A stretch of DNA of 10,244 nucleotides from IMG/VR virus record IMGVR_UViG_3300012281_000038; one strand, 5' to 3'. Positions 1-10,244 of the stretch are shown here, piece after piece; positions within the stretch are counted from its first letter, which is position 1, and every line of letters begins with the position of its first letter. Below the pieces are notes generated by a model. The model worked only from the letters and a program-made list of their open reading frames with translations. It was not told the origin of the DNA and searched no databases. The DNA comes from a virus. Taxonomy: Duplodnaviria; Heunggongvirae; Uroviricota; Caudoviricetes. The translations under genes and the position numbers were made by a program.

Positions 1-243
1 CCCTTGCAGTGCATATTCACCACGGAATCCGGGGGCGTACACCGCATGGCATTCAACAATGCTATGCCAGAAGTTACGCACTTCATGAACGCCAGCCAGC
101 ACCAATCCTTCGTAGATACCGAGATATACCGCATCAGGCTTGATGTAGTACGTGTGCCCCGGCTCAACAATATTTTCGGTATTGCCAGGCTCGTTGAGAA
201 AGGCCTGTAATCGCACAGGGTTATCAATAAATTTTAGTTCCAT
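1..243 (-). CDS. hypothetical protein, N-terminal 81 codons only (gene continues past the left edge of the window)
   Basis: ATG at 243-241 on the minus strand, then an open frame to position 1 (MELKFIDNPVRLQAFLNEPGNTENIVEPGHTYYIKPDAV...). It starts 17 nt after the stop of the 53-aa ORF. It is absent from the supplied ORF track because no stop lies inside the window. No family recognised. Confidence 0.45.
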   Translation of the reverse strand, partial: MELKFIDNPVRLQAFLNEPGNTENIVEPGHTYYIKPDAVYLGIYEGLVLAGVHEVRNFWHSIVECHAVYAPGFRGEYALQG

Positions 244-259
244 GCGATGCCATCCATTT

Positions 260-421
260 TCACATACAGCCTGCCAGCGCCTTATCTATTAACCCTCGTG
301 CAATTTCATGCAGAGTTGGCGCTACTCCAATTCCTGATTTTTTACGCTGCTCTTCCTGAATTTTCTTTATCGCTTCCATTTGCTTCTCACTTATCAATAC
401 CGGCTTTACTGAAATAGCCAT
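260..421 (-). CDS. small hypothetical protein (53 aa), possibly a small DNA-binding regulator (ribbon-helix-helix-like pattern is a guess)
   Basis: ATG 421-419 preceded by GGGGG four nt upstream; stop TGA 262-260. Translation MAISVKPVLISEKQMEAIKKIQEEQRKKSGIGVAPTLHEIARGLIDKALAGCM. Below the 60-aa cut-off of the ORF track. Sits directly behind a LexA-box-like operator and -10 element. Confidence 0.4.
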   Translation of the reverse strand: MAISVKPVLISEKQMEAIKKIQEEQRKKSGIGVAPTLHEIARGLIDKALAGCM

Positions 422-434
422 AACGCCCCCTTAG

Positions 435-460
435 AACTGTATAAAACAACAGTTATTATA
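435..460 (-). promoter_or_regulatory. candidate SOS-type operator: palindrome AACTGT-N8-ACAGTT (435-454) abutting a perfect TATAAT -10 hexamer (460-455, minus strand)
   Basis: The sequence AACTGTATAAAACAACAGTT contains the CTGT-N8-ACAG core of the LexA box consensus TACTGTATATATATACAGTA. It lies between the -10 hexamer and the RBS/ATG of the 53-aa ORF. No convincing -35 hexamer was found. Confidence 0.4.
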
Positions 461-513
461 GTTTCACAAATCGCAATATTCATCATCGTAATTGCAAAAT
501 ATGAAACAGATAG

Positions 514-549
514 CACAAAAAAATGCCACCGCTCAGTAGCTGGTGGCAT
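514..549 (-). terminator. rho-independent terminator (minus-strand orientation)
   Basis: Perfect 8-bp stem ATGCCACC (523-530) / GGTGGCAT (542-549) with an 11-nt loop, followed on the minus strand by TTTTTTGTG (A-run 517-522 on plus). Lies downstream of the primase and ori region and upstream of the small LexA-box unit. Confidence 0.6.
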
Positions 550-742
550 CGTTCTGTGTGTCAGGTTTTGACAGGTTTTTTATGGACTCTAAAAACTATA
601 TTTATGGTGTCGCATTACTCTTCACGGCAGGCGCTTTTCAGTTCTGCCCTTGCTTCTGGCTCCATTGGTAATTTGATTCGCGATCAGCTATGCGGATGGT
701 TTGCTGAACAGGTATAACAACTTCTCAGGGGCTGTTTTCTGA

Positions 743-819
743 ACTACGAAAATTTCGTAGTGCTCACTTTCAAAAACGTCACGCCCTTGTACACAGGATT
801 TTACGAAAGTCTCGTAAAA
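743..819. repeat. two palindromes sharing a TACGA / TCGTA core: ACTACGAAA-A-TTTCGTAGT (743-761) and TTTTACGA-aagtc-TCGTAAAA (799-819)
   Basis: Both palindromes verified base by base (9-bp arms with a 1-nt centre; 8-bp arms with a 5-nt spacer). They lie in the non-coding stretch between the terminator and the iteron array. Confidence 0.6.
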
Positions 820-869
820 CACTCTCTGATGCCAGCCAGGTGTTGTGCGCATCAATTCAGTCACATTGT

Positions 870-989
870 GTTGGTTCAAAATACCGTGCTGTTGGTTCAG
901 TGTTGGTTCAATAAAAAGAATAAAATCCTTATAAAACAATACTCTTTACAAATTGAACCAACTGAACCAACTGAACCAACTGAACCAAC
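870..989. repeat. iteron array, putative replication origin: 3 x GTTGGTTCA (870-878, 891-899, 902-910), an AT-rich spacer (911-953), then 4 perfect tandem copies of the reverse-complement 9-mer TGAACCAAC (954-989)
   Basis: Repeats read directly from the sequence. The array ends 25 nt before the stop codon of the primase-helicase gene (1015). Inverted iterons flanking an AT-rich core next to the replication gene is the usual architecture of satellite and plasmid origins. Confidence 0.55.
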
Positions 990-1014
990 ACCTTTTCTAC
1001 GCACATGAAGAAGC

Positions 1015-3727
1015 TCATTCTTCAGATGAGTTGTAATCTCCTGGCTGGTAATTGAGTACATAAACGTTTATTTGTCGTCCCTGAATACGTGGTGATTTTC
1101 TTTGGTATCCACGACCGCTGTTTGGTGGGGTTAGCATCCCGGCTTTTTTCAACACTTCAGCAAACTGTTTTGCGTTGAAACCACATGCGATCTCCTTTTC
1201 AAATGTGGCCGGGAATGTGTAGAAAATCATTGGGCTTTCGTCATGTTCTCCACGCTGACGGTATCCGGCTAAATCTTTGATGGGCAAATCTGCCGGGCTG
1301 TATGGAAATGGTGCAAAACGGCTAAGCCCATAGGCATTAAGAAATGCCTCCGTTTGTTCAATAATCTGCTGATGTTCTTTGTTACCTGTGCCGAACTCGC
1401 GCAACCATGCGTTATAGCTGTGCTGTATCGCATCACGGCATGTCTGAGCATCCCAGCCTGTTACAACCTCGCCTAACAGCAATGCGGCCTCCAGAATGGC
1501 AAATCGCGCGGCTACACGGTGAACCTGCTCACCATAATCGGATGGGATCAGACTTCTCCATCTGCTTTCGCAGTCACGAACAGTTTTAATTGCCTGTTGC
1601 TGGTGGTCTGCCAGCCATTTAATCCACTCACGCCCGGCTGCGCCGTGGTGATGCTGGTAAGCGTCTTTCAGTGCGTCTGCGTGCTGTTTTCCGTTCTGGT
1701 AATCGTGAAAGCGTACTGCTTTACTCAACGGAATATTCAGCAGTCGCACCAGTTGCCCGGCTTTGGTTTTTCGCCCGGAAGTAGCGATAAATGTTTCTAA
1801 ATCCATTTCTCCGGTGCTGATTGCCACTGTACGCCAGCGTTTTAGATCCCGGTTTCCACCATCTTTAGCGCCTTGCAGTTTCCCTACGCCGTTAAATAAC
1901 GCATAGGCAGACTGTGAAACACTGACAGGATCAGCGCCCTGACCAACTTCATCAAGCGGCATTAGTCCGTCATTGTGGGCGGCGGCTTCATTTGCCAGCC
2001 CCAGCGCGGTTCCGTACCACGTCAGCCGCAGTAAATCAGGGTTGCCGTATAAGCTGCTCGCCACGTTTGCCGTGGTGGTCTTACCTGCGCTCGACTGCTC
2101 ATAGAAATGAATGCCGAACCCGTCAGCGCCCACCAGCCTAATCAATGGCGCTGCCAGTGCTGCGCCGATCCCGGTCATCATTGAATAGTTACCAAAGGCC
2201 AGACGCGCCACGTTATCACGCCAGCTTTTCGCGCTCCCTGAGACGGTATATCCGGCTGCGGCTGAGCTTCTCCCGCTGAACAGCACAGGATTTTCAGGTG
2301 TTCCGATGATTTCCCCATCAGGCATGATGTACGCTCCGCATTGCCAGCCAGTGGCATGAGCAACACGCCACAATTCACGAGAGCCACTGCGTTGTAGCCA
2401 GTCTGCCAGTATTGCTCTGAGGCTGCTTTTGGTCGTGACATTTACCCCACCAGCTTTAAGTGTGCGCCATCCTTCACGTTCACCAATATCAGCCAGTGGA
2501 ATGGCAGCGGTTGTCGGCGTTTCAGAACCAAACGACAGCCAGCGAAGAATGAGATACTGGTCTTTATCGTCTCTGCCAGTACCGATAACGCTTAACGGAG
2601 AACATAACCAGCTTTCGTTATTGATGATTTCTCCACTCTGGCTGTCAGCTCTCGGAGATACCCAATAAATGCCATCCTCGCGGCTTTCTATTCTTGGTTT
2701 CAGTGGGTCGGTATCCATAACCTTAAAATCGCTTCCCTCAATGGTTTGTGGCTCCTGTTTCACGCCATTACCCTGTGGTTGGTACATTGACTTATTGAAC
2801 GCTTCTGTGGCGCATTTAATGCCGTGTTTTTGGTGGTAATCATTCCAGTCTGCTTTGTGATCTGTCGGGGGTAATGCCACCCATCCAGAAACAGATAAAG
2901 CTGCTTTTTCTGCTGCTATTCTCCCCGTGTTTTGTCTTCCTTCGCGGTGGTCGTTATCCGCAGCAATGATGATTTGTGCTGAAGGAAATTTATCCTGCAG
3001 TACCTGGGCGACATATAACAGGTTCCCGGCATCAATCGCCGCCACTGTCAGCGCCTCTGGACGCATTAAATGGGCAGATAATGCCGTTGCCAGCCCTTCT
3101 GCGATTAAGATGCTCTGTGTTGTTTCTGGTGNNNNNNNNNNCACCATGTGAGGTAATAGTCTGTGCTGCTGTTACTGCGCCGGATTTATCCACCAGCGCC
3201 AGCAACAGAGATCCATCGGGCAACACGGGGAATGTAAAATCACCTACCCCTTTCGCAACCAGATAATCAGATTTGCCGTTTACAGCCTTTCTGCGCATGT
3301 CATCAAACTGACGGGAAAACGTATCCCGTCTTTGTTGTTCGTCCTTCTCTTCCCTTTTCAGGCGCTCCTGTTCGCGTCGCTGGCGCTCGGTTTCCAGTTG
3401 TTCCCGTTTCTGGCTGGTGGCTTCTGGTGTTTCCGTTGTCCGGTAATCAATACCCAGAACATCAGCGGCAAGAAGCGCCGCCTCTGTTGTGTCGCAGTTA
3501 TTTACGCGTTTAATTAAATCCAGCCCATCACCAGCGCCGCACTGATTACAGATGAAGCTACCGCGCCCGTTGTCATCGAACCGGAATCGATCTTTGCCCC
3601 CACATGCAGGGCAGGGAGCATGACGGCGCGGAGAGTCAGGGACATTTATGTTCAGGCAGCCCAGCACATGAGGCCAGTTGTTTTCAGACGCACTGATAAC
3701 CTGACGGATAAGATCAATGTTTCGCAT
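1015..3727 (-). CDS. DNA primase-helicase: N-terminal zinc-ribbon, TOPRIM domain, C-terminal P-loop NTPase (D5/DUF5906-like); reading frame broken at the 10-N run 3132-3141
   Basis: Track ORFs 3032-3730 and 1015-3147 are two halves of one gene. The N-terminal half has CPACGG...CNQCG (zinc ribbon). The second half has the TOPRIM signature (IAEGLATALS ... IIIAADNDHREGRQ) and a Walker-A-like SSAGKTT. The likely start is ATG 3727-3725 (GTG at 3730 is the track start). The two halves are in different frames across the N run. Confidence 0.85.
3132..3141. other. run of 10 N (masked or unresolved bases) inside the primase gene
   Basis: Literal n characters. Flanking reading frames differ by one, so the true length is probably not 10, or the gene is frameshifted. 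Confidence 0.95.
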
Positions 3728-4085
3728 CACCGTACCCCACGTGGTCTATAGCGTTTGCGATATGGCTAACCAGCATCTGCCACTTGGTTATTCCGTAATC
3801 AGTCAGCATGCCATCATTGTTTAGCCACATATCAAATTCAGCGGTTGTCGCAAGTTTCCACTTATCGCCGTGGACAGTCCTCATTGCTGGGTACATGAAT
3901 GCGCAAATCAGATCACAAACATCTGACGGCTTCAGAGATGTAGTAATGGTGCGTCCCTCTGGCGTCTGAATTGCCATTTTCTCTTCACCAGTAGAATGAA
4001 GGTTATGAATCCACACAGCGCCAGCAATCTTTGCCACCTGCTCTCCGATTGCGGAGCTAAGCGCCATTTCTGCATTTTCACGCAT
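3714..4085 (-). CDS. hypothetical protein (123 aa)
   Basis: ATG 4085-4083 with GGGAGG five nt upstream; stop TGA 3716-3714, overlapping the primase start by 14 nt. No family recognised. Confidence 0.6.
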   Translation of the reverse strand: MRENAEMALSSAIGEQVAKIAGAVWIHNLHSTGEEKMAIQTPEGRTITTSLKPSDVCDLICAFMYPAMRTVHGDKWKLATTAEFDMWLNNDGMLTDYGITKWQMLVSHIANAIDHVGYGDAKH

Positions 4086-4346
4086 GAGAACCTCCCGCTA
4101 CAGTTGCGCCCATGTCATTAACCATGCTTTGCCATATCTCACGCCCGACGTCAGTCAATCCGTCCTTAGTGACGCAACGATCAAGAAGCTCTATCCCCAC
4201 GGTTTCCCACTGCGGGTAGAACACTTTCATGGCTGCCANNNNNNNNNNNNNNNNNNNNNNNNNNNNNNNNNNNNNNNNNNNNNNNNNNNNAGTGCCGACG
4301 CATACTTATTTGCCAGCGCATTCAGTCGGAAATTTTTAGTAATCAT
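4078..4346 (-). CDS. hypothetical small protein interrupted by a 52-N run (extent and frame uncertain)
   Basis: ATG 4346-4344 (MITKNFRLNALANKYASA...) with GGATGGAG upstream. Beyond the N run the open frame ...MKVFYPQWETVGIELLDRCVTKDGLTDVGREIWQSMVNDMGATVAGGSHA ends at TGA 4080-4078, overlapping the ATG of the 123-aa gene (ATGCGTGA). Frames on the two sides of the gap disagree if the N count is literal. Confidence 0.3.
4239..4290. other. run of 52 N (masked or unresolved bases)
   Basis: Literal n characters. Confidence 0.95.
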
Positions 4347-4356
4347 GGCTCCATCC

Positions 4357-4959
4357 TCAGTGCGTCACTGGTTCCGCTGGCATGCCGTTTTCATTCAGTT
4401 CAGCTATAAAGCTGTTGTGAAGTTCAGCAAGCGTTTCACGACCAAATGGAGTCAGTGCTCCTTGTTCCACATCCATCATGGCTCTGTAGAAAATGATGGC
4501 GCGTTCTGTGCCAGACTCGATGCCAAAACGTTCTATCATCGCGCCCTCAATGTTGTTTGCCATAGCGAGGCGCTCTGCTACTGGATACAGCGGCATGGCG
4601 ACGATGCCGTTGGAATAAACAGCCACTTCGGAAGGATTGCCAGTATCATCAATGATGCTGACAGTGCCGTTTTCCTCTCTCATTTCCAGCATGAATACTG
4701 TTGCGATCAGCCATCTCCACATAATGACGTTATGCTGTGATGTGTAATCGAAATATCCTTGGTTGCCGCCATCGGCAATAGCGAGATGTATTGACATACC
4801 TTCATCTGGTTTATCGTCATAATCCCCGGCATCCAGACGATTTACGGCATCAATATATGAAACGGCCTCAACGCGTTCTGTCATGCCATCGTTGCTGCGG
4901 TGCATGATGTTTACGCCGTCAGGCGTTGCTTCTGCATGGAAGGTTAAGAAATTATTCAT
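4357..4959 (-). CDS. hypothetical protein (about 200 aa)
   Basis: Preferred start ATG 4959-4957 (MNNFLTFHAEATPDG...) with GAGG seven nt upstream, overlapping the stop of the preceding 73-aa gene (ATGAATAA). The track extends the ORF to 5064 but that part overlaps the upstream gene. Stop TGA 4359-4357. Confidence 0.6.
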   Translation of the reverse strand: MNNFLTFHAEATPDGVNIMHRSNDGMTERVEAVSYIDAVNRLDAGDYDDKPDEGMSIHLAIADGGNQGYFDYTSQHNVIMWRWLIATVFMLEMREENGTVSIIDDTGNPSEVAVYSNGIVAMPLYPVAERLAMANNIEGAMIERFGIESGTERAIIFYRAMMDVEQGALTPFGRETLAELHNSFIAELNENGMPAEPVTH

Positions 4960-5173
4960 GTTTCGCCTCGCCTGAATGATTCTGTAACTCATATTTGCCC
5001 AACAATTCGTCTGCTTCCTGAATAGCTTCTGGTACGCCATTGAGCAGTGACATAACCGCGCCAATCATTAACTTGTCTCTGTTGCTGGGGCTGGCCCCTT
5101 CAAGCCAGAACCCTAAAACAGTCTGAACCTGTTCGATGCGACATTGCGCTTCAATGAGCTGGATGTTGGTCAT
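4952..5173 (-). CDS. hypothetical small protein (73 aa)
   Basis: ATG 5173-5171 with GGAGAG six nt upstream; stop TAA 4954-4952, overlapping the next start. Confidence 0.55.
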   Translation of the reverse strand: MTNIQLIEAQCRIEQVQTVLGFWLEGASPSNRDKLMIGAVMSLLNGVPEAIQEADELLGKYELQNHSGEAKHE

Positions 5174-5207
5174 TTCGCACTCTCCGCATCGATTAAACTG
5201 ATATCTA

Positions 5208-5432
5208 TCAGAGAGGTAACTTTTGTAGCCAGCTAGTGATTACTGTCGCCTGTTCCCCTCCCACCGATGGAAGAATCTCATTCATCACATGAACCAGACC
5301 TGTGCGCGCTCTGGTAAGCCGTTCAGTCGTGCGATCTGCAAGAGTGAATGTGTCTGGATATGGCTCTTCACGGCTCAGCAATGATTCAATTTCCAGCTCA
5401 CACGGATGACGATAAATTAAGTTGATATTCAT
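5208..5432 (-). CDS. hypothetical small protein (74 aa)
   Basis: ATG 5432-5430 overlaps the stop of the upstream gene (ATGA). Stop TGA 5210-5208. Confidence 0.55.
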   Translation of the reverse strand: MNINLIYRHPCELEIESLLSREEPYPDTFTLADRTTERLTRARTGLVHVMNEILPSVGGEQATVITSWLQKLPL

Positions 5433-5623
5433 TTTTCACCCCCAAGAATTACCAGCTCTGCACGAGCATCGTTAACCAAAGATGAGCACGCTTTAATCGC
5501 ATCCACGACATCAGCAGCGTCCATTTCTTCAGCCGAAAGACTGACAGCAACCAAGACAGCCGCTGCTTGCTCGATTAATTGAAGTGCGGACGTAAGTCGA
5601 GGGGCATTAATTGAGTTATTCAT
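5429..5623 (-). CDS. hypothetical small protein (64 aa, MNNSINAPRLTSALQLIEQ...)
   Basis: Preferred start ATG 5623-5621 preceded by GGGGG, overlapping the stop of the upstream ORF (ATGAATAA). The longer track ORF starting at 5680 overlaps the upstream frame. Confidence 0.5.
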   Translation of the reverse strand: MNNSINAPRLTSALQLIEQAAAVLVAVSLSAEEMDAADVVDAIKACSSLVNDARAELVILGGEK

Positions 5624-6683
5624 TGGTTGCCCCCGTTTTTCCTGGCATTTCGCCACCTTCCAGCAGGAAATGAACGTCACGAACGGCGAGATCCAATATC
5701 GCGAGTAACGCCTTCAGTTTTTCGTCTCGTGAGGGAGAGTTGCTCACCAGAATGTCATTAATCACTTCTGTCAGTGTGATGATCTGGCTTGTGCGTTCGA
5801 GGGGATCCATATGCACATCGTAGGTTTTAATCATGTGCCACCTCCATGCGGATACGACCAGCAAAAAAGCAGACGTGATCGCGCACCAGAGAACGGCGAG
5901 CATCGCGTTCAGACTCGGCAGCAATATGATGAATTTTGGCGGTAATTGTCGGGCAATCGCGGCGAACTGCGGCGATAATCCAGATAAATTGCGGTTTTTG
6001 GGTAGGGGTAGTAGCCAGCATGTGGCAGCCTCCTTGTACTGGGAATTCTTCCCACCACCGGAGCTGCGAAACTCGCTGGTGGTGGACTGAACAGAGTTCG
6101 CAGTACCGGCGTACAAGGAAACCGGCCAGCCTTTCGGCTGCCCTGTCCAGCCCACCATAATTTTGCAAGCGACGCGGATTATAACCACATCACTGAAAAA
6201 AGTGTGAGTCTGGCTAACGGCACAAAAAAAGACGCTCGGCGCGTCATGTGTCGCCTCGTACATTTCCGGGCTGCGAAACCCGGCACCCGTTTTATGAGGT
6301 GCCTTATAACCATAAACCGTGTTGCCGCATAACGACAAGCTCTTTTTTATGGACTCCGAAAACTCACTATTGGAAGCACCAGATGCACAATACATCGCGC
6401 TCATTTCGTTAACGTCGCGCGTGTGGACGAAGGTTTTTGTGGAGCCACTACGCGAGCAGAGAAAGCCATCTACGACCAGAAATTCTCTGGCGCAGCCGCT
6501 GACCCTCTCAACGATAACACCATCGACCGTAATTTCTGACATAGTTAAGGCATCCGCTCCTACCACCAGCAAATGATAAACTTTGCTTGCATCTGCTGTA
6601 TTAATGCCTGATTTTGCTGTCATATTGCTGGATTTTTGCCACATACCAGCCAGTGAAAATATCTTCTTCTGGGCGGTTAGCAT
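5616..6683 (-). CDS. 355-aa open frame of doubtful integrity: good start signals, but the middle contains hairpins and T-runs and may be non-coding or a structured RNA; an internal start would give a 72-aa C-terminal product (5616-5834)
   Basis: ATG 6683-6681 with GGAGG seven nt upstream and the same ATGNNNTAA overlap with the preceding gene as elsewhere in the operon. The frame stays open for 355 codons. The central part is low-complexity and carries a terminator-like hairpin with T-run (6224-6245) and two hairpins sharing the 10-mer GCTGCGAAAC. An internal GGAGG + ATG (5834-5832) precedes a well-formed C-terminal segment MIKTYDVHMDPLERTSQ... Confidence 0.35.
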   Translation of the reverse strand: MLTAQKKIFSLAGMWQKSSNMTAKSGINTADASKVYHLLVVGADALTMSEITVDGVIVERVSGCAREFLVVDGFLCSRSGSTKTFVHTRDVNEMSAMYCASGASNSEFSESIKKSLSLCGNTVYGYKAPHKTGAGFRSPEMYEATHDAPSVFFCAVSQTHTFFSDVVIIRVACKIMVGWTGQPKGWPVSLYAGTANSVQSTTSEFRSSGGGKNSQYKEAATCWLLPLPKNRNLSGLSPQFAAIARQLPPKFIILLPSLNAMLAVLWCAITSAFLLVVSAWRWHMIKTYDVHMDPLERTSQIITLTEVINDILVSNSPSRDEKLKALLAILDLAVRDVHFLLEGGEMPGKTGATNE

Positions 6684-6859
6684 TTGTTAACCTCCGCGAA
6701 CTCCTTCATGAAACGTGCCAGCGGTTGTACGCATGGCGATTGATACCCGTCGCGATAAAACGTCACTCGGTTGTGAGACACGCTTTCGACAGTAACGAGT
6801 GCTCCGTGGGCATCTTTGTAGCGTTTTTGAGGTTGTGGTGTTCCTGTCGGCTTAAACAT
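6677..6859 (-). CDS. hypothetical small protein (60 aa)
   Basis: ATG 6859-6857 with GGAGG eight nt upstream, overlapping the stop of the antirepressor gene (ATGTTTAA). Stop TAA 6679-6677. Confidence 0.5.
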   Translation of the reverse strand: MFKPTGTPQPQKRYKDAHGALVTVESVSHNRVTFYRDGYQSPCVQPLARFMKEFAEVNKC

Positions 6860-7700
6860 GGACCGCCTCCAGACGCTTAGCGAGCCAGCGTTGCGACAGG
6901 CGGGTGAGTTCTCCTTTGCGCTGCTCATATTCCATGCCCATATCAATTAACGTGATATTGGTGCTTTCGAGATATGAGAGGTGCTCAAGCTGTTCTGCGT
7001 TCATATGGTCGCGAGGTTCGCCAGAATAGCCATTTATCCGCGCCCACTGCTTAGCAGTTAGCCCACCAAGAACGATACGAGAAATCATATTGCTCTCGTT
7101 TGTGTAGTGGTGTTGCTGCGTCGTTTTACCCATCTCGGCACGGGCCATATTCAGCGCATCGCACATTGGCTTAAAGTTGTTTGCGGCACTGATACGGGCT
7201 TTTAGCTGGCGACGATAGCGGGCGGCGATTTCAGGCACGCTACGCTGTAATTCTTCCTCGCACTGGATGAAATAACGGCGGATAGCGCGACCCTGATCAT
7301 TGCGTTCGATCATTGCCAGTTCTTTCGCCATTCCGACACTTAACAGATAGTCTTTGCCGGGTCTGCCAGACTGCTTAATCTTGCTGTAAGCCGCGCCATT
7401 CGGGCTTTTCCCCAAATTTGGGGAAATTGTTTTATGGACTGAGTAATCGCGCCCAATGGTGAAGTCATACTCAGAGATGCGNNNNNNNNNNNNNNNNNNN
7501 NNNNNNNNNNNNNAGAAGTCTTTTCCCACGCCCAACGCTTTGTGTAACGCTTTTGCGCTAACAATATTGGTTTCACGCCCACCGATATGACCAGGAATAA
7601 CCGGGACAATTGCGGCAAATTCATTACCGTTAATTGTGCCCAGAAAGGCGTTCGGATGAGGGGCGGCCTCAGAAATTAATCTGCTTTTTTCGATGTTCAT
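6852..7700 (-). CDS. phage antirepressor-like protein (AntA N-terminal domain + KilA-C/ANT C-terminal domain)
   Basis: ATG 7700-7698 with GGAGA upstream. Motifs VSAKALHKALGVGKDF ... GRPGKDYLLSVGMAKELAMIERNDQGRAIRRYFIQCEEEL match the AntA/KilAC antirepressor pattern. A 32-N run (7482-7513) falls inside without disturbing the frame. Confidence 0.75.
   Translation of the reverse strand: MNIEKSRLISEAAPHPNAFLGTINGNEFAAIVPVIPGHIGGRETNIVSAKALHKALGVGKDFXXXXXXXXXXXRISEYDFTIGRDYSVHKTISPNLGKSPNGAAYSKIKQSGRPGKDYLLSVGMAKELAMIERNDQGRAIRRYFIQCEEELQRSVPEIAARYRRQLKARISAANNFKPMCDALNMARAEMGKTTQQHHYTNESNMISRIVLGGLTAKQWARINGYSGEPRDHMNAEQLEHLSYLESTNITLIDMGMEYEQRKGELTRLSQRWLAKRLEAVHV
7482..7513. other. run of 32 N (masked or unresolved bases) inside the antirepressor gene
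   Basis: Literal n characters. Confidence 0.95.
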
Positions 7701-7712
7701 TTTCAGTCTCCG

Positions 7713-8144
7713 TTAGGCGGCGTTAAACGCGTCCGGGTAGAGTTTCAGAATGTCGGCAATTTCCTGCTGAGAAAGTCCGTTGTGATCATTTATGTTCGCA
7801 AGATGGTTAACATGAGTGATCACTTTCAGAACATCACCACGGCAGGAGAAACGGTAGCGAAGGTGTGCTCCGATACCATCAGGATTCTTTTCGTCGATAC
7901 GCTCCAGAGTGATCCCAAGCTGGCGTTCTAACTCTGTTGCATAGTTACGACCAGAAGACAGACGGCAGTAGCGAAGAATGTCGTTTTCTGTCCATCCCTC
8001 TATACCAGTACGCAGCATATAGACTCGGGCGCGATGCTTTTTCGGTGTGCGCTTTGGTGCTTGAAGGGATTTTGTCAGGGGCGTAACATCAGATACGCGA
8101 ATATCTGAATTAGCCGCCTGTAATGGGCGGTTTTTCTTTTCCAT
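7713..8144 (-). CDS. hypothetical protein (143 aa), basic N-terminus, possible C-terminal helix-turn-helix
   Basis: ATG 8144-8142 overlaps the alpA-like stop (TGATG). Stop TAA 7715-7713. The C-terminal GLSQQEIADILKL resembles an HTH recognition segment. No family confidently recognised. Confidence 0.55.
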   Translation of the reverse strand: MEKKNRPLQAANSDIRVSDVTPLTKSLQAPKRTPKKHRARVYMLRTGIEGWTENDILRYCRLSSGRNYATELERQLGITLERIDEKNPDGIGAHLRYRFSCRGDVLKVITHVNHLANINDHNGLSQQEIADILKLYPDAFNAA

Positions 8145-8347
8145 CAGGCCACCTTCCCGCGGCGTTCTGCCAGCCAGTTGTGAATCTCAACCGCATCAAA
8201 CGCAGTTATTTTTTCTCCCAGCTTTACCGGACGTGGTAGTGAACCGTTTCTTACTTTACGGTCGATGGTGGATACACTAACGCCCAGCAATTCAGCCAAG
8301 CGGAAGCGTCTGATATAGCCTTTTGTAGGAATAGTGTCAGTGTTCAT
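8144..8347 (-). CDS. alpA: AlpA-family phage transcriptional regulator / excisionase-like HTH protein (67 aa)
   Basis: Translation MNTDTIPTKGYIRRFRLAELLGVSVSTIDRKVRNGSLPRPVKLGEKITAFDAVEIHNWLAERRG fits the AlpA (Phage_AlpA) HTH pattern. ATG 8347-8345. Position between integrase and replication genes is typical. Confidence 0.8.
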   Translation of the reverse strand: MNTDTIPTKGYIRRFRLAELLGVSVSTIDRKVRNGSLPRPVKLGEKITAFDAVEIHNWLAERRGKVA

Positions 8348-8420
8348 GCTTCCCGTAACCTCTTAACGATAGTTGTTGCTTCGTTACGAGAAAACTAACT
8401 GTATAGATATACAATGAAAA

Positions 8421-8442
8421 GGTACTGTATTTTTGCAGTACC
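8421..8442 (-). terminator. hairpin GGTACTG-N8-CAGTACC followed by TTTTCATT on the minus strand; possible terminator of the int-cargo transcript, or an operator
   Basis: Perfect 7-bp inverted repeat (8421-8427 / 8436-8442) starting 12 nt after the stop of the 316-aa gene, with a T-rich tail on the minus strand. Confidence 0.4.
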
Positions 8443-8453
8443 TCTATAGTAAG

Positions 8454-9404
8454 TTAACTATCTACTTTGCCATTTGCCGCAGCTCGTAGATGTTTAAGAA
8501 TTACATCTTCATTAGTTATCATAAGTGGTGGAACTTCGCCTAAATGCCGAACAAGGCAGTCACGCCACTTTTCCGGGCTTATTTCTTTCCTTTCTCCTCT
8601 GCATTCATCTGGATACTTACTAAGTATATAAATTGCAGATTTTAATAGTTTCTCCCTATTGACAGCGTGTCGTTCGGCACGTTTATTGACTTTCAACGTG
8701 TTTATATCATTGGATAACTTGTTTGCAGAAGGCTTGTGCGTGGGTTTATCATAAATATATCTTCCTCCATTGATAAGGAGATTGAATTCATAATCAGTTA
8801 TATACATTTTGTTCCGGCTTACTTCATACCATCCGTCAATATAAAAAGTTCCGATTTCATAATCCGGCGATTTATAAAAATCGTCACATCTTGGCGGCGT
8901 CAATTCGCATACTGAAATCTCCCAATCATCCCATTCTGATAGCTCTCGCTCATCGTTATCTATGAATGCAGGAGGAATTGCTAATAGACCGCACCATCTT
9001 TCTATCTCTCTTTTATCCTTTCCGACATTGTATCGCTCTATAACTGAAAAATGCTCTGATTTGTATGAAAATCTAATAAAATACAGGTGGTTATCGTCAT
9101 TTTTGTCATCAAGGGATGATAATCCATATGATTCAGGATCATCTATATTATCGCTCAGTCCAAGAAGGTAGTTCTCATTTGCCACTTTCTCATCTATATC
9201 GAAAAAGCTATCTGTTTCAACTTTAAGTAATTCTGGCTCGGCATTTTCATCTTTTGGGTAATGGTAAAACAATTCAATAGGTGGAATCTTTGTGCATATT
9301 TCTAAAACCCCAATTGCTGCATAGTGTATTAAATCGGATACTTCACATCCGGCCAGTTTGGCTGCTTTATCCAAAGAATAATATTTATGCGCAGGTAATT
9401 TCAT
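8454..9404 (-). CDS. hypothetical protein (316 aa), low-GC cargo gene; possible N-terminal HTH, acidic central region; function unknown
   Basis: ATG 9404-9402 with strong RBS GGAGGAGAG seven nt upstream, 18 nt after the integrase stop. GC is about 33-38% in sampled stretches against about 50-53% for neighbouring genes. The N-terminal YSLDKAAKLAGCEVSDLIHYAAIGVL resembles an excisionase/MerR-type HTH. No catalytic motif recognised. Confidence 0.7.
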   Translation of the reverse strand: MKLPAHKYYSLDKAAKLAGCEVSDLIHYAAIGVLEICTKIPPIELFYHYPKDENAEPELLKVETDSFFDIDEKVANENYLLGLSDNIDDPESYGLSSLDDKNDDNHLYFIRFSYKSEHFSVIERYNVGKDKREIERWCGLLAIPPAFIDNDERELSEWDDWEISVCELTPPRCDDFYKSPDYEIGTFYIDGWYEVSRNKMYITDYEFNLLINGGRYIYDKPTHKPSANKLSNDINTLKVNKRAERHAVNREKLLKSAIYILSKYPDECRGERKEISPEKWRDCLVRHLGEVPPLMITNEDVILKHLRAAANGKVDS

Positions 9405-9422: not shown

Positions 9423-10244
9423 TCATGCTCTAATTGGTGTCACGTTGTAGTCTTTTCCGCTTTCCAGTGCCACCAGCAGATCAGCCCACTGTGCCAGTGC
9501 TGCTTTACGCTCATCAAAATACTGATGGCGGTTATAAATCCCCTCTATGCCCTTAATGCGATGATTGAGGCATCGTTCCGCCACGACAGGATCAACACCC
9601 AACGCTGCTAAATGAGTACGTGCGGTGCGTCGGAAGTCGTGAATCGTGAAATTAGGCACATCCGGCATTTCGGCGCGAACCTTAGCCAGTGCTACGGGTA
9701 AAGTGCTTTCCTGAATATGTGGGATCATTCTGTTTTGCATTTTCCTGGCTGGAAGCACCCATGCGCTATTACATGAAAAGGTGTGAAGCTCTCTCAACCA
9801 TTCAACGGCTGGGGAAGGTAGAGGTATATCAATAGGGTCTCCGTTTTTGCTGCGTTCTTCCGGCAAATGCCATACCGCACCATCTAAATCAAACTCTTCC
9901 CATCGTGCGGCGCATAACTCCATCTTACGAACGCATAGTGCCAGCAATAGCTTAAATGTCAGTTCGTTCTGGCGGCTGAATCCTTTTGCGGTGCGCATAG
10001 CCTCGAATAGCCTGATAAGCTCATCGCGAGTTAGCCAACGGTCGCGGGAAACCTCTTTACCACCAGCATCAGATACTTCAAACGCTGAACAAGGGTTTAT
10101 CTCCAGAGCGTGGCGTTTTATCCCATAGTCAAAGATACGGCGTGTCCAGCGTAATACATCTGTTGCTATCGTTGGTGCTCCTCGGTCAACGATACCTTTC
10201 AACATGTCGTCAATGTGGCGTGGCTTAACGTCCTCTACCTTCAT
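9423..10244 (-). CDS. int: tyrosine recombinase / phage integrase, C-terminal catalytic portion (N-terminus lies beyond the right edge)
   Basis: Catalytic-domain motifs: R in LCVRKMELCAARWEE, HDFRRTARTHLAALG (H-x-x-R), NHRIKGIEGIYNRHQY (catalytic Tyr region). Stop TGA 9425-9423. The ATG at the window edge is probably internal. Confidence 0.9.
   Translation of the reverse strand: MKVEDVKPRHIDDMLKGIVDRGAPTIATDVLRWTRRIFDYGIKRHALEINPCSAFEVSDAGGKEVSRDRWLTRDELIRLFEAMRTAKGFSRQNELTFKLLLALCVRKMELCAARWEEFDLDGAVWHLPEERSKNGDPIDIPLPSPAVEWLRELHTFSCNSAWVLPARKMQNRMIPHIQESTLPVALAKVRAEMPDVPNFTIHDFRRTARTHLAALGVDPVVAERCLNHRIKGIEGIYNRHQYFDERKAALAQWADLLVALESGKDYNVTPIRA

What the first reader, a model, noticed from the sequence alone, without database searches (positions are those of the whole stretch)
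3714..6859. Array of unannotated small proteins with stop-start overlaps
Successive genes overlap by ATGA or ATGNNNTAA/TGA at junctions 3714-3727, 4078-4085, 4952-4959, 5429-5432, 5616-5623, 6677-6683 and 6852-6859, each with an RBS inside the upstream gene. This implies a single polycistronic unit of small proteins (60-200 aa) between the antirepressor and the primase. I recognise none of them. Such early-operon small proteins in satellites are typically helper-phage hijacking or host-takeover factors.
Basis: partly seen in the sequence, partly recalled or inferred. Interest (0 to 1): 0.4.

Follow-up and report, generated by a model that had tools for sequence, protein, structure and literature searches.

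The report
P4-style early operon of EcCIMP1-like island
The overlapping small genes are real, but they form the RNA-controlled early operon of a known kind of phage-parasitic island (97.7% identical to the published EcCIMP1), and the largest "gene" hides two regulatory RNAs, a cell-division-inhibitor gene and a copied phage packaging site.

Summary
All seven stop/start overlaps exist on the minus strand, each with a Shine-Dalgarno motif, and the layout recurs in related islands of other genera.

**What the element is.** Window 1-8154 is 97.6-97.9% identical to the published E. coli island EcCIMP1. The interval is built like the left operon of satellite P4.

**What the 355-codon frame (5616-6683) holds.** It is the counterpart of P4 eta. 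It is open in all 19 loci examined but shows no amino-acid constraint. It contains:
- an internal promoter;
- an isrK/seqA-like leader with terminator;
- a 111-bp antisense fragment of a P22-type small-terminase gene that starts at its pac site.

**The small ORFs.** The seven downstream ORFs are real coding genes. Pfam, PHROGs, NCBIfam, PADLOC, PDB searches and two AlphaFold models gave no function.

**Most likely logic.** The RNA blocks icd translation, and coupling silences the chain down to the primase. Translation through the eta-like frame from the upstream alpA operon overrides this. These steps are inferred from P4, not shown here.

**Verdict.** Ordinary in kind. The pac copy appears unreported and is testable.

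The parts
6852..7700 (-). antA/AntB-family antirepressor gene, upstream neighbour of the chain
   Evidence: Pfam AntA. PGAP name in relatives. pN/pS 0.2-0.5. Contains an N-mask at 7482-7513.
6677..6859 (-). DUF4222 gene (60 aa). Its ATG overlaps the ant stop (ATGTTTAA).
   Evidence: Pfam PF13973, E 6e-25. Variable sites by codon position 1/2/6.
5616..6683 (-). 355-codon 'Ash family'/eta-like frame. Its ATG overlaps the DUF4222 stop (ATGCTAA). It runs over the promoter, both RNA genes and icd (out of frame), then joins the orf72 frame.
   Evidence: Pfam Phage_ASH matches aa 124-232, which is window 5988-6314. The frame is open in all 19 loci, with 0 stops against 5-19 in the other sense frames. 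pN/pS is 0.7-1.3 with flat codon-position counts. The start is always coupled to the upstream stop. The P4 eta frame has the same content.
6425..6535 (+). Fragment of a P22-type small-terminase (gene 3) sequence, antisense to the operon. The pac-equivalent 22-mer GAAGGTTTTTGTGGAGCCACTA lies at 6429-6450.
   Evidence: 91/107 identical and ungapped to P22 gene 3 nt 268-374, starting at the annotated P22 pac site 4-25. 102/111 identical to terS nt 264-374 of P22-like viral contigs that carry the same 22-mer variant. Same boundaries in other E. coli islands.
6309..6338 (-). Sigma-70-like promoter inside the eta-like frame: -35 TTGTCG (6338-6333), 18-nt spacer, -10 TATGGT (6314-6309), +1 near 6302.
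   Evidence: Read from the sequence. The block is almost invariant, with 2 variable sites in 70 among 9 islands, and is conserved across genera. It falls below the threshold of the consensus scanner. Function is inferred.
6225..6302 (-). isrK/seqA-like leader RNA holding target a1 (6282-6270), target b1 (6262-6253) and an intrinsic terminator (stem 6245-6231 plus T-run).
   Evidence: Rfam RF01394, 69 bits, E 2e-13, gathering score 50. Terminator scan. Duplex energies. The same family hits the P4 seqA region.
6075..6162 (-). C4/CI-family antisense RNA. The loop of hairpin 2 (b') is UUUCCUUGUACG. The single strand a' is UACUGCGAACUC.
   Evidence: Rfam RF01695, 81 bits, E 4e-15, gathering score 45. 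Ten alleles across loci have loops that co-vary with their targets.
6028..6074 (-). Downstream targets. a2 (6074-6063) lies just 3' of the C4-like RNA. b2 (6040-6028) covers the AAGGAGG Shine-Dalgarno of icd.
   Evidence: RNAduplex b'-b2 is -14.9 kcal/mol and a'-a2 is -13.2 kcal/mol in the window. Across loci, cognate b'-b2 averages -14.1 against -6.7 for non-cognate pairs.
5827..6021 (-). Icd/Kil-like gene (64 aa), the first cistron after the RNAs.
   Evidence: NCBIfam phage_ICD_like, E 4e-20. 43% identical to P4 Kil, E 3e-9. pN/pS 0.08-0.34.
5616..5834 (-). orf72. Its ATG overlaps the icd stop (ATGATTAA). Found only in this E. coli lineage.
   Evidence: Own GGAGG motif. Variable sites 2/4/7, with one allele carrying a premature stop. 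No family. Probable gene.
5429..5623 (-). orf64, a small helical protein. ATGAATAA overlap with orf72.
   Evidence: pN/pS 0-0.24. Variable sites 3/3/6. No family. PGAP calls it a hypothetical protein.
5208..5432 (-). orf74, a truncated copy of an 87-aa gene. ATGA overlap with orf64.
   Evidence: 1-nt deletion in an A5 run compared with relatives. Homologues in other genera are 55-59% identical, with median pN/pS 0.27.
4952..5173 (-). orf73
   Evidence: phrog_20558, function unknown. Variable sites 1/0/6. Homologues about 41% identical, with pN/pS 0.32.
4357..4959 (-). orf200, the most widespread member of the array.
4078..4346 (-). orf113 (113 aa in unmasked relatives; N-mask at 4239-4290).
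   Evidence: Full sequence taken from L001. phrog_37628. 131 clusters across Enterobacterales. Variable sites 0/0/6, with pN/pS 0.39 across genera.
3714..4085 (-). orf123. Overlaps the primase start by 14 nt.
   Evidence: Variable sites 12/8/41. 21 clusters. AlphaFold pLDDT 87.8: helix, beta-hairpin, long helix, helix. No fold match.
1015..3727 (-). Zn-ribbon/TOPRIM/DUF927 primase-helicase, the last gene of the chain (N-mask at 3132-3141).
   Evidence: Pfam Toprim_3 and DUF927. N-terminus 48% identical to P4 alpha.

Best explanation
The interval is the immunity-controlled early (replication) operon of an EcCIMP1-family phage-inducible chromosomal island. It is organised like the left operon of satellite P4.

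**Shown here.**
- A chain of stop/start-coupled cistrons runs ant, DUF4222, eta-like frame, then icd, orf72, orf64, orf74(87), orf73, orf200, orf113, orf123 and the primase.
- Inside the eta-like frame lie an isrK/seqA-like leader with a terminator and a C4/CI-family RNA.
- The two single-stranded regions of that RNA are complementary to a1/b1 in the leader and to a2/b2 just upstream of icd. Target b2 covers the icd ribosome-binding site.
- These three partners co-vary across ten alleles.
- The eta-like frame is kept open but evolves without amino-acid constraint.

**Inferred from P4 and P1.**
- In the resident island the internal promoter makes the leader and the antisense RNA.
- The RNA pairs with a2/b2 and blocks icd translation.
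- Because every later cistron depends on coupling, the whole chain down to the primase stays off, through polarity or premature termination.
- When a helper phage induces AlpA, transcripts from the upstream alpA-ant operon are translated through the eta-like frame. The ribosomes melt the terminator and the RNA targets, override immunity and hand over to the coupled small ORFs and the primase.

**The seven unknown small proteins.** They are genuine, partly lineage-specific accessory genes. They sit where P4 has epsilon (helper derepression), orf151 and cnr (copy-number control). They most likely act on the helper, the host or the primase, but which does what is unknown.

**The terS fragment.** The 111-bp fragment with the pac-type 22-mer most likely lets P22-type terminases package the island.
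For: **Identity of the element.**
- Window 1-8154 is 97.6-97.9% identical to EcCIMP1 of E. coli MP1, with the same protein accessions as in near-identical relatives.
- EcCIMP1 was shown experimentally to be excised and transduced with the P22-like phage Kapi1, under AlpA control (PMC11773190).

**RNAs.**
- Rfam C4 scores 81 bits and isrK 69 bits.
- The same pair sits upstream of icd in all 16 related loci scanned (11, 5). It is also present in P4, inside eta.

**Targets.**
- Covariation is visible by eye.
- Cognate against non-cognate duplex energies are -14.1 vs -6.7 kcal/mol for b'-b2 and -10.9 vs -6.3 kcal/mol for b'-b1.
- Target b2 covers AAGGAGG, 8 nt before the icd ATG.

**icd.** It is a homologue of P4 Kil at 43% identity and matches the NCBIfam Icd-like model.

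**Eta-like frame.**
- It has 0 stops against 5-19 in the other sense frames. The chance probability is 1e-4 to 1e-7 per locus.
- It is in frame with icd in 12 loci.
- Its start is always coupled to the upstream stop.
- pN/pS is 0.7-1.3, against 0.08-0.34 for the icd part.
- The P4 mechanism (internal constitutive promoter; Kil as a truncated Eta; eta coupled to the alpA homologue; eta translation prevents termination) is described in PMC10111431, citing Forti 1999.

**Small ORFs coding.**

**pac.**
Against: - No expression data were available. The promoter, the processing of the RNA, termination and read-through are all inferred.
- In the window lineage the eta-like frame is shifted by 1 nt relative to icd (281 nt instead of a multiple of 3). 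Here it is not literally an N-terminally extended Kil as in P4.
- The antirepressor lies upstream of the RNA genes, unlike P1, where ant follows icd.
- No small ORF resembles P4 epsilon, orf151 or cnr. The functional analogy is positional only.
- The experimentally shown helper Kapi1 has an unrelated TerS and no copy of the 22-mer.
- The 22-mer is not significantly better conserved than its flanks among 9 islands: 3 of 22 variable sites against 22 of 85 in the rest of the fragment.
Confidence: 0.7

Rival explanations
1. One reading: one plain polycistronic unit of eight protein genes, including a 355-aa protein, with no RNA-level control.
For: All junction overlaps and Shine-Dalgarno motifs exist. 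PGAP annotates the 355-codon frame as 'ash family protein' in some genomes.
Against: - Two Rfam families score far above their gathering thresholds inside the frame.
- There is three-way covariation of RNA loops and targets.
- A terminator and a conserved internal promoter are present.
- A conserved icd gene lies in another frame.
- The frame shows no amino-acid constraint.
Confidence: 0.05
2. The 355-codon frame encodes a functional Ash/Bro-network protein. Its sequence matters, and the RNA genes merely overlap it.
For: - Pfam Phage_ASH, E 1e-28, and PHROG 'transcriptional repressor' families match it.
- The frame is open in all loci.
- A short N-terminal motif (M-x-A-V/L-Q-x-K-x-F-x-L-A-G) is shared with P4 Eta.
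Against: - pN/pS is 0.7-1.3, with equal substitution counts at the three codon positions. This holds both in the N-terminal part and over the RNA genes, while the in-frame icd part gives 0.08-0.34.
- The length and content of the N-terminal part vary freely between loci, from 174 to 321 codons.
- In the window lineage a 1-nt shift swaps the C-terminus from Icd to orf72.
- The amino-acid conservation of the 'Ash domain' coincides exactly with the RNA genes.
Confidence: 0.15
3. The terS fragment is a neutral scar of past recombination with a P22-like phage (late-gene capture), not a working packaging site.
For: - All islands share the same fragment boundaries, which fits a single ancestral event.
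- The 22-mer is not significantly more conserved than its flanks.
- The known helper Kapi1 has a different TerS and transduces EcCIMP1 only at a low rate.
Against: - The fragment starts within 4 nt of the pac 22-mer.
- The island 22-mer variant is identical, or one base off, to that in full-length terS genes of real P22-like phages at the same gene position.
- A related element carries only a 30-bp piece (the 22-mer plus 8 nt) at another place and in the other orientation.
- The 22-mer co-occurs perfectly with P22-type ejection-protein genes: 12 of 12 loci with enough sequence have both, against 0 of 12 loci without the fragment.
Confidence: 0.35
4. The unknown small ORFs are mainly anti-phage or superinfection-exclusion cargo rather than helper-hijack or replication accessories.
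For: [quoted passage not shown]
- Membership of the array varies between lineages, as at satellite hotspots.
Against: - There is no PADLOC match.
- The ORFs lie inside the immunity-repressed, translationally coupled replication operon. They would be silent in the resident state, when defence is needed (inference from the architecture).
- orf113 and orf123 overlap the primase start.
Confidence: 0.15

Closest known systems
Left operon of satellite phage P4 (PLL/PLE, eta-kil, CI RNA with seqA/seqB/seqC, epsilon, orf151, cnr, alpha)
   Same: - The order is the same: alpA-type gene, a long frame coupled to the upstream gene, an isrK-type leader, a C4-type RNA, a Kil/Icd homologue, small ORFs with 8-nt overlaps, then the primase.
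- Kil is 43% identical to the window icd.
- The primase N-terminus is 48% identical.
   Different: - ant and DUF4222 are inserted between alpA and the long frame.
- The long frame is shifted 1 nt relative to icd in this lineage.
- The primase is TOPRIM+DUF927 rather than the P4 alpha type.
- No small ORF is similar to epsilon, orf151 or cnr.
- There is no sid/delta/psu module. The element has a P22-type rather than a P2-type helper signature.
immI region of phages P1/P7 (a1 b1 - c4 - a2 b2 - icd - ant)
   Same: A C4 RNA with two recognition elements, duplicated target pairs, b2 over the icd ribosome-binding site, an Icd-like first gene, and allele-specific (heteroimmune) loops. P1-like phages are the best phage DNA matches to 5980-6319.
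   Different: The antirepressor is upstream of the RNA, not downstream of icd. What is controlled here is a replication operon ending in a primase.
EcCIMP1, phage-inducible chromosomal island of E. coli MP1 (PMC11773190)
   Same: 97.6-97.9% identity over window 1-8154. Same small-ORF proteins, Ash frame, primase and 22-mer.
   Different: - The integrase/attachment module differs. The window island matches relatives inserted next to yicC and carries a 316-aa AT-rich ORF.
- The paper does not describe the RNAs, the icd/eta logic, the small ORFs or a pac site.
IsrK locus of Salmonella prophage Gifsy-1 (PMC4825925)
   Same: The leader matches the Rfam isrK model over its full length, terminator included. 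Both are short terminated leaders whose read-through form carries downstream genes.
   Different: In Gifsy-1 the short RNA activates translation of orf45-anrP in trans. Here the leader is followed by a C4-type RNA and icd, and it carries sequences complementary to that RNA.
Satellites that carry their helper's packaging site (my recollection, not checked here: P4 with the P2 cos site; cos-type islands such as EcCICFT073 and SaPIbov5)
   Same: A short helper-derived packaging signal on an element that lacks its own terminase.
   Different: Here it is a pac-type (headful) signal copied from inside the helper's terS gene and embedded antisense in a regulatory reading frame. Its function is untested.

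Membership tests
P4-type immunity module (eta/kil + CI RNA) | CI/C4-family antisense RNA encoded in the leader of the early operon | tested here: met
   Rfam RF01695, 81 bits, at 6075-6162. The same model hits P4 CI at 8420-8507.
P4-type immunity module (eta/kil + CI RNA) | Upstream (seqA) and downstream (seqC) target sequences complementary to the RNA | tested here: met
   a1/b1 in the isrK-like leader and a2/b2 before icd. Cognate duplexes are 4-7 kcal/mol better than non-cognate for the b sites and 2-5 kcal/mol better for the a sites. Covariation is seen across 10 alleles.
P4-type immunity module (eta/kil + CI RNA) | First translated gene is kil, nested in a longer frame (eta) that starts upstream of the internal promoter and is coupled to the upstream gene | tested here: inconclusive
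   The Kil homologue is present. The long frame is present, open and coupled. It is in frame with icd in 12 related loci, but shifted by 1 nt in the window lineage.
P4-type immunity module (eta/kil + CI RNA) | Translation of eta prevents termination; the RNA causes premature termination | not testable with these tools
   This needs transcript mapping and nonsense mutants. The only indirect support is selection for an open frame without amino-acid constraint.
P1/P7 immI operon | c4 - icd - ant order, with ant translationally dependent on icd | tested here: not met
   The antA/B gene (6852-7700) lies upstream of the RNA genes. icd is followed by unknown ORFs and a primase.
Gram-negative phage-inducible chromosomal island (EcCIMP1 family) | Integrase, AlpA regulator and primase in one orientation; no capsid or terminase genes; near-identity to a validated member | tested here: met
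   int 9423-10244, alpA 8144-8347 and the primase 1015-3727. 97.6-97.9% identity to EcCIMP1.
Gram-negative phage-inducible chromosomal island (EcCIMP1 family) | Helper-dependent excision, replication and transfer | not testable with these tools
   Shown for EcCIMP1 itself in PMC11773190, not for this copy.
P22-type pac site | 22-bp recognition sequence at nt 268-289 of a gp3-type terS gene | tested here: inconclusive
   The window 22-mer aligns to that position. It is 15/22 identical to P22 and 21/22 identical to the allele in P22-like contigs L028, L035 and L037. It sits in a gene fragment, not in a terS gene. Recognition by a terminase is untested.
Ubiquitin-like beta-grasp (considered for orf123) | Significant single-domain similarity and a beta-grasp fold | tested here: not met
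   The E 4e-15 hits to polyubiquitin are sums over nine repeats of about 5 bits each. Monoubiquitin gives E 0.2-0.7. The AlphaFold model (pLDDT 87.8) is helix, hairpin, 35-residue helix, helix.
P4 Cnr / DUF5375 (considered for orf200) | Profile similarity to P4 ORF106 | tested here: not met
   hhalign probability 1.7%. No Pfam hit for any of the 24 family members.

The most novel reading that the evidence does not exclude
EcCIMP1-family islands carry a working copy of the pac site of a particular subgroup of P22-like phages. It is the 22-mer at 6429-6450, embedded antisense in the eta-like regulatory frame, and it comes with the islands' own gp14-gp7-gp20-gp16 ejection-protein set.

If so, the efficient helpers would be phages with the matching gp3-type small terminase, not Kapi1. 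That would explain the low transfer reported for EcCIMP1. Helper range would be set by a 22-bp sequence.

In addition, at least one of the lineage-specific small ORFs (orf72, orf64, orf123) would be a new helper-derepression or takeover factor, analogous to P4 epsilon.
Probability: 0.4. Interest if true: 0.55.

Novelty: new member of a known kind. Interest (0 to 1): 0.35.

Why it matters
The finding as posed is ordinary. It is the early operon of an already published island family, and its control logic matches one worked out for P4 and P1 decades ago.

Three points have practical value:
- **Annotation.** Pipelines and two protein-family libraries treat the RNA immunity region as an 'Ash' protein or 'transcriptional repressor'. 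The frame evolves neutrally at the amino-acid level. It looks selected only to stay open. This is a clean comparative signature of regulation by translation-through.
- **Packaging.** The published EcCIMP1 study could not say how the island is packaged. The terS/pac fragment gives a specific 22-bp hypothesis that can be tested cheaply. It also predicts which prophages are the efficient helpers.
- **Candidate list.** Seven conserved proteins have no detectable family or fold and sit where P4 keeps its helper-derepression and copy-control genes. They form a short, well-defined list for satellite-helper interaction screens.

Tried and rejected
**Readings of the 355-codon frame.**
- I first took the frame to be a spurious ORF over RNA genes. 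I rejected that because it is open in all 19 loci against chance of 1e-4 to 1e-7 per locus.
- I then rejected the opposite reading, a conventional protein, because pN/pS is about 1.

**orf123.**
- It is not ubiquitin-like. The PDB hits are a repeat-summing artefact, and the confident AlphaFold model is not a beta-grasp.

**orf200.**
- It is not related to P4 Cnr/DUF5375, although three homologues carry that precomputed Pfam tag.

**Library searches.**
- Pfam, PHROGs, NCBIfam and PADLOC gave no function for orf72, orf64, orf87, orf73, orf200, orf113 or orf123.
- Profile searches of PDB sequences gave nothing for orf113 or orf200.
- No similarity was found to P4 epsilon or orf151.

**pac site.**
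- Kapi1 is not the source: its TerS is unrelated and it has no 22-mer.
- The window's exact 22-mer, with the rarer C at position 17, is absent from IMG/VR. The degenerate pattern was needed.

**Calls that failed.**
- One literature search was wasted on unspecific terms.
- The primary P4 paper (Forti 1999) is not held. Its content is cited through PMC10111431 and from my own memory.

Full report
**Observation.** All long ORFs in the window lie on the minus strand.
- ATGCGAAACATTGA at 3714-3727
- ATGCGTGA at 4078-4085
- ATGAATAA at 4952-4959
- ATGA at 5429-5432
- ATGAATAA at 5616-5623
- ATGCTAA at 6677-6683
- ATGTTTAA at 6852-6859

Each start is preceded by a GGAGG-like motif. An eighth overlap was missed (5827-5834, ATGATTAA). 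Two junctions have gaps. One of these, orf74 to orf73, is caused by a 1-nt deletion in an A5 run. Relatives have an 87-aa gene that overlaps the next start by ATGA.

The stop rate in unselected sense frames is 0.049 per codon. At that rate a run of seven such junctions cannot be chance. The pattern also recurs in a 73%-identical relative and in other genera.

Three N-masks in the window differ in length from the DNA they replace. This breaks the frames of orf113, the primase and ant only apparently.

**What the element is.** The region matches more than 1100 of 5426 complete E. coli genomes. Window 1-8154 is 97.6-97.9% identical to EcCIMP1 of E. coli MP1. The proteins carry the same RefSeq accessions as in near-identical relatives.

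EcCIMP1 is a published phage-inducible chromosomal island. It is excised and transduced with the P22-like phage Kapi1 under AlpA control. The paper lists the antirepressor, the 'Ash family protein' and the primase as its conserved core. It leaves the small ORFs and the packaging mechanism open (PMC11773190).

The window copy has a different integrase module. In near-identical islands that module is inserted next to yicC.

**The 355-codon 'gene'.** Rfam finds a C4 antisense RNA at 6075-6162 (81 bits, gathering score 45). It also finds an isrK-type RNA at 6225-6302 (69 bits, gathering score 50). Both lie on the operon strand. The isrK-type element ends in a stem plus T-run terminator.

Pfam Phage_ASH matches residues 124-232 of the frame. 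That stretch is window 5988-6314, exactly the RNA genes.

A 64-aa gene in another frame (5827-6021) matches the NCBIfam Icd-like model (E 4e-20). It is 43% identical to P4 Kil.

In P4 itself, Rfam places isrK and C4 at the seqA and CI positions. Both lie inside the 217-codon eta frame, which ends with kil.

All 16 related loci scanned carry the same isrK, C4, icd order. They include Kluyvera, Scandinavium, Shimwellia, Kosakonia, Enterobacter, Lonsdalea and Atlantibacter.

**RNA targets.** The 12-nt loop of hairpin 2 (b') and the single strand after it (a') are complementary to two places. One is sequences in the leader: a1 at 6282-6270 and b1 at 6262-6253. The other is sequences just downstream of the RNA: a2 at 6074-6063 and b2 at 6040-6028. 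Target b2 covers the AAGGAGG of icd.

Ten distinct alleles exist in the loci collected, and loop and targets change together. The mean cognate b'-b2 duplex is -14.1 kcal/mol, against -6.7 for non-cognate pairs. For b'-b1 the values are -10.9 and -6.3.

Islands that are 98-99% identical elsewhere carry RNA modules only about 72% identical. Immunity specificities are therefore exchanged as cassettes.

**An open frame without a protein signature.** In every one of 19 loci a single frame is open from the stop of the upstream gene, through the promoter, the leader and the C4-like RNA. It has 0 stops, against 5-19 in each of the other sense frames. The chance probability is 1e-4 to 1e-7 per locus.

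In 12 loci the frame is in frame with icd, and the distance from the isrK start to the icd ATG is always a multiple of 3 (240, 243, 264, 270 or 282). In the window lineage the distance is 281. There the frame passes through icd out of frame and joins orf72.

Its start codon always overlaps or abuts the upstream stop (ATGCTAA, ATGCTTAA or TAATG).

Yet its substitutions are spread evenly over codon positions, with pN/pS 0.7-1.3. The icd part of the same frame gives 0.08-0.34.

This fits the P4 mechanism as summarised in PMC10111431, which cites Forti et al. 1999:
- Kil is the truncated form.
- Full eta is translated only from the upstream late promoter and is coupled to the alpA homologue.
- Its translation prevents termination.

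I could not read the primary paper.

A promoter-like TTGTCG-18-TATGGT lies just upstream of the leader start. It sits in a block with 2 variable sites in 70.

**The small ORFs.** Codon-position counts and pN/pS support coding for:
- orf123: variable sites 12/8/41
- orf113: 0/0/6, and pN/pS 0.39 across genera
- orf200: about 0.3
- orf73: 1/0/6, and 0.32
- orf87: 0.27 across genera

Support is weaker for orf64 (3/3/6) and orf72 (2/4/7, with one allele carrying a premature stop).

Membership of the array varies. orf200 is found in every locus except the degenerate L003, and orf87 in most. orf73 and orf113 are in about half. orf72 and orf64 occur only in the E. coli lineage. orf123 occurs in the E. 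coli lineage and a few other genera. Some close relatives lack orf113 and orf123.

No function could be assigned:
- Pfam, PHROGs, NCBIfam and PADLOC give only 'unknown function' families.
- Profile searches of PDB sequences give nothing credible.
- The orf200 model is mediocre and matches nothing.
- The orf123 model is confident (pLDDT 87.8). It is a helical bundle with a beta-hairpin and has no structural neighbour.

By position these ORFs correspond to P4 epsilon, orf151 and cnr. They share no detectable similarity with them.

**The terS/pac fragment.** Window 6429-6535 on the plus strand, antisense to the operon, aligns without gaps to P22 gene 3 nt 268-374 (91/107 identical). The alignment begins at the first base of the annotated 22-bp P22 pac site.

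The island version of the 22-mer differs from P22 at fixed positions. A degenerate search of IMG/VR found it in full-length gp3-type terS genes of four P22-like contigs, at the same gene position. Window 6425-6535 is 102/111 identical to three of them (L028, L035, L037).

Seventeen complete E. coli records carry that terS allele at 99% identity or more. In other islands the fragment always spans terS nt 264-374, or 259-374 in one record.

A related element carries only 30 bp (the 22-mer plus 8 nt), about 0.9 kb beyond its gp16-like gene.

The 22-mer co-occurs with homologues of P22 genes 14, 7, 20 and 16 just downstream of the primase. All 12 loci with enough sequence have both. None of the 12 loci without the fragment has them.

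Against a function:
- The 22-mer is not significantly more conserved than its flanks.
- Kapi1, the only tested helper, has an unrelated TerS and no 22-mer.

That last point would, however, fit the low transfer rate reported for EcCIMP1. It would also fit the finding that only 2 of 21 EcCIMP1 strains carry a Kapi1-like prophage. I found no paper describing this site.

**Verdict.** It misses that the chain is the RNA-controlled early operon of a known island family. It also misses that its largest member is a regulatory reading frame, not a protein gene in the usual sense. The kind of system is known. The pac copy and the neutral-but-open frame are the points worth following up.

Noticed in passing
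window 6425-6535 (+); 22-mer at 6429-6450: An antisense fragment of a P22-type small-terminase gene that starts at the pac site. The same 22-mer variant occurs in full-length terS genes of P22-like phages. A related element (L033, L041) carries only a 30-bp piece.
   Followed up: yes
window 1-243 (-), continued in L002 7585-12243 and L046 12598-17766: Directly after the primase the island carries homologues of P22 genes 14, 7, 20 and 16 (ejection proteins), at 23-55% amino-acid identity. Window 1-243 is 84% identical to Kapi1 gene 055. These genes co-occur with the pac-type 22-mer.
   Followed up: partly
window 954-989 and 890-910: TGAACCAAC repeated four times, plus an inverted partial copy, just downstream of the primase stop. 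This is iteron-like and a candidate replication origin.
   Followed up: no
window 5988-6314; Pfam PF10554, phrog_6928: The Pfam 'Ash protein family' and PHROG 'transcriptional repressor' families correspond to the translation of the isrK-type and C4-type RNA genes. The frame shows no amino-acid constraint, so these protein families largely reflect RNA conservation.
   Followed up: yes
window 6022-6302 versus L002, L003, L008, L010: Islands 98-99% identical elsewhere carry an RNA immunity module only about 72% identical, with matching changes in loops and targets. This points to cassette exchange of immunity specificity.
   Followed up: partly
L016 5890-6024, L017 2677-2989; window about 6340-6361 and 6412-6432: A 22-30-nt motif (GAGTTTCGAGACCAGTACGCGC) occurs in two or three copies upstream of the internal promoter in other genera, with weaker copies in the window. 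It is a possible operator for AlpA or another regulator.
   Followed up: no
window 8454-9404 (-): An AT-rich (36-39% GC) 316-aa ORF between alpA and the integrase. It has no Pfam or PADLOC match. It is absent from EcCIMP1 and from L001, L003, L008 and L010. A homologue (52% amino-acid identity) sits at the same position in L015. This looks like a variable cargo slot.
   Followed up: partly
window 5208-5222: orf74 is an 87-aa gene truncated by loss of one A in an A5 run. This is either a real frameshift or a homopolymer sequencing error.
   Followed up: yes
L004 6959-7222, L009 6812-7075: RefSeq names some orf87 homologues 'nicotinic acetylcholine receptor subunit beta', an obvious annotation error.
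   Followed up: no
window 6178-6183 (-): A perfect TATAAT lies 15 nt upstream of the C4-like RNA, in the long-spacer alleles only. It has no good -35 element. It may be a second promoter for the RNA.
   Followed up: no
window 3132-3141, 4239-4290, 7482-7513: The N-masks do not have the length of the DNA they replace. For example, the 54 window positions 4237-4290 (52 of them N) stand for 127 nt, and 32 N stand for 17 nt. Reading frames and coordinates therefore shift across them.
   Followed up: yes
window 260-421 (-): A conserved 53-aa ORF (WP_001018524 in relatives) between the primase and the gp14-like gene, with no Pfam match.
   Followed up: no
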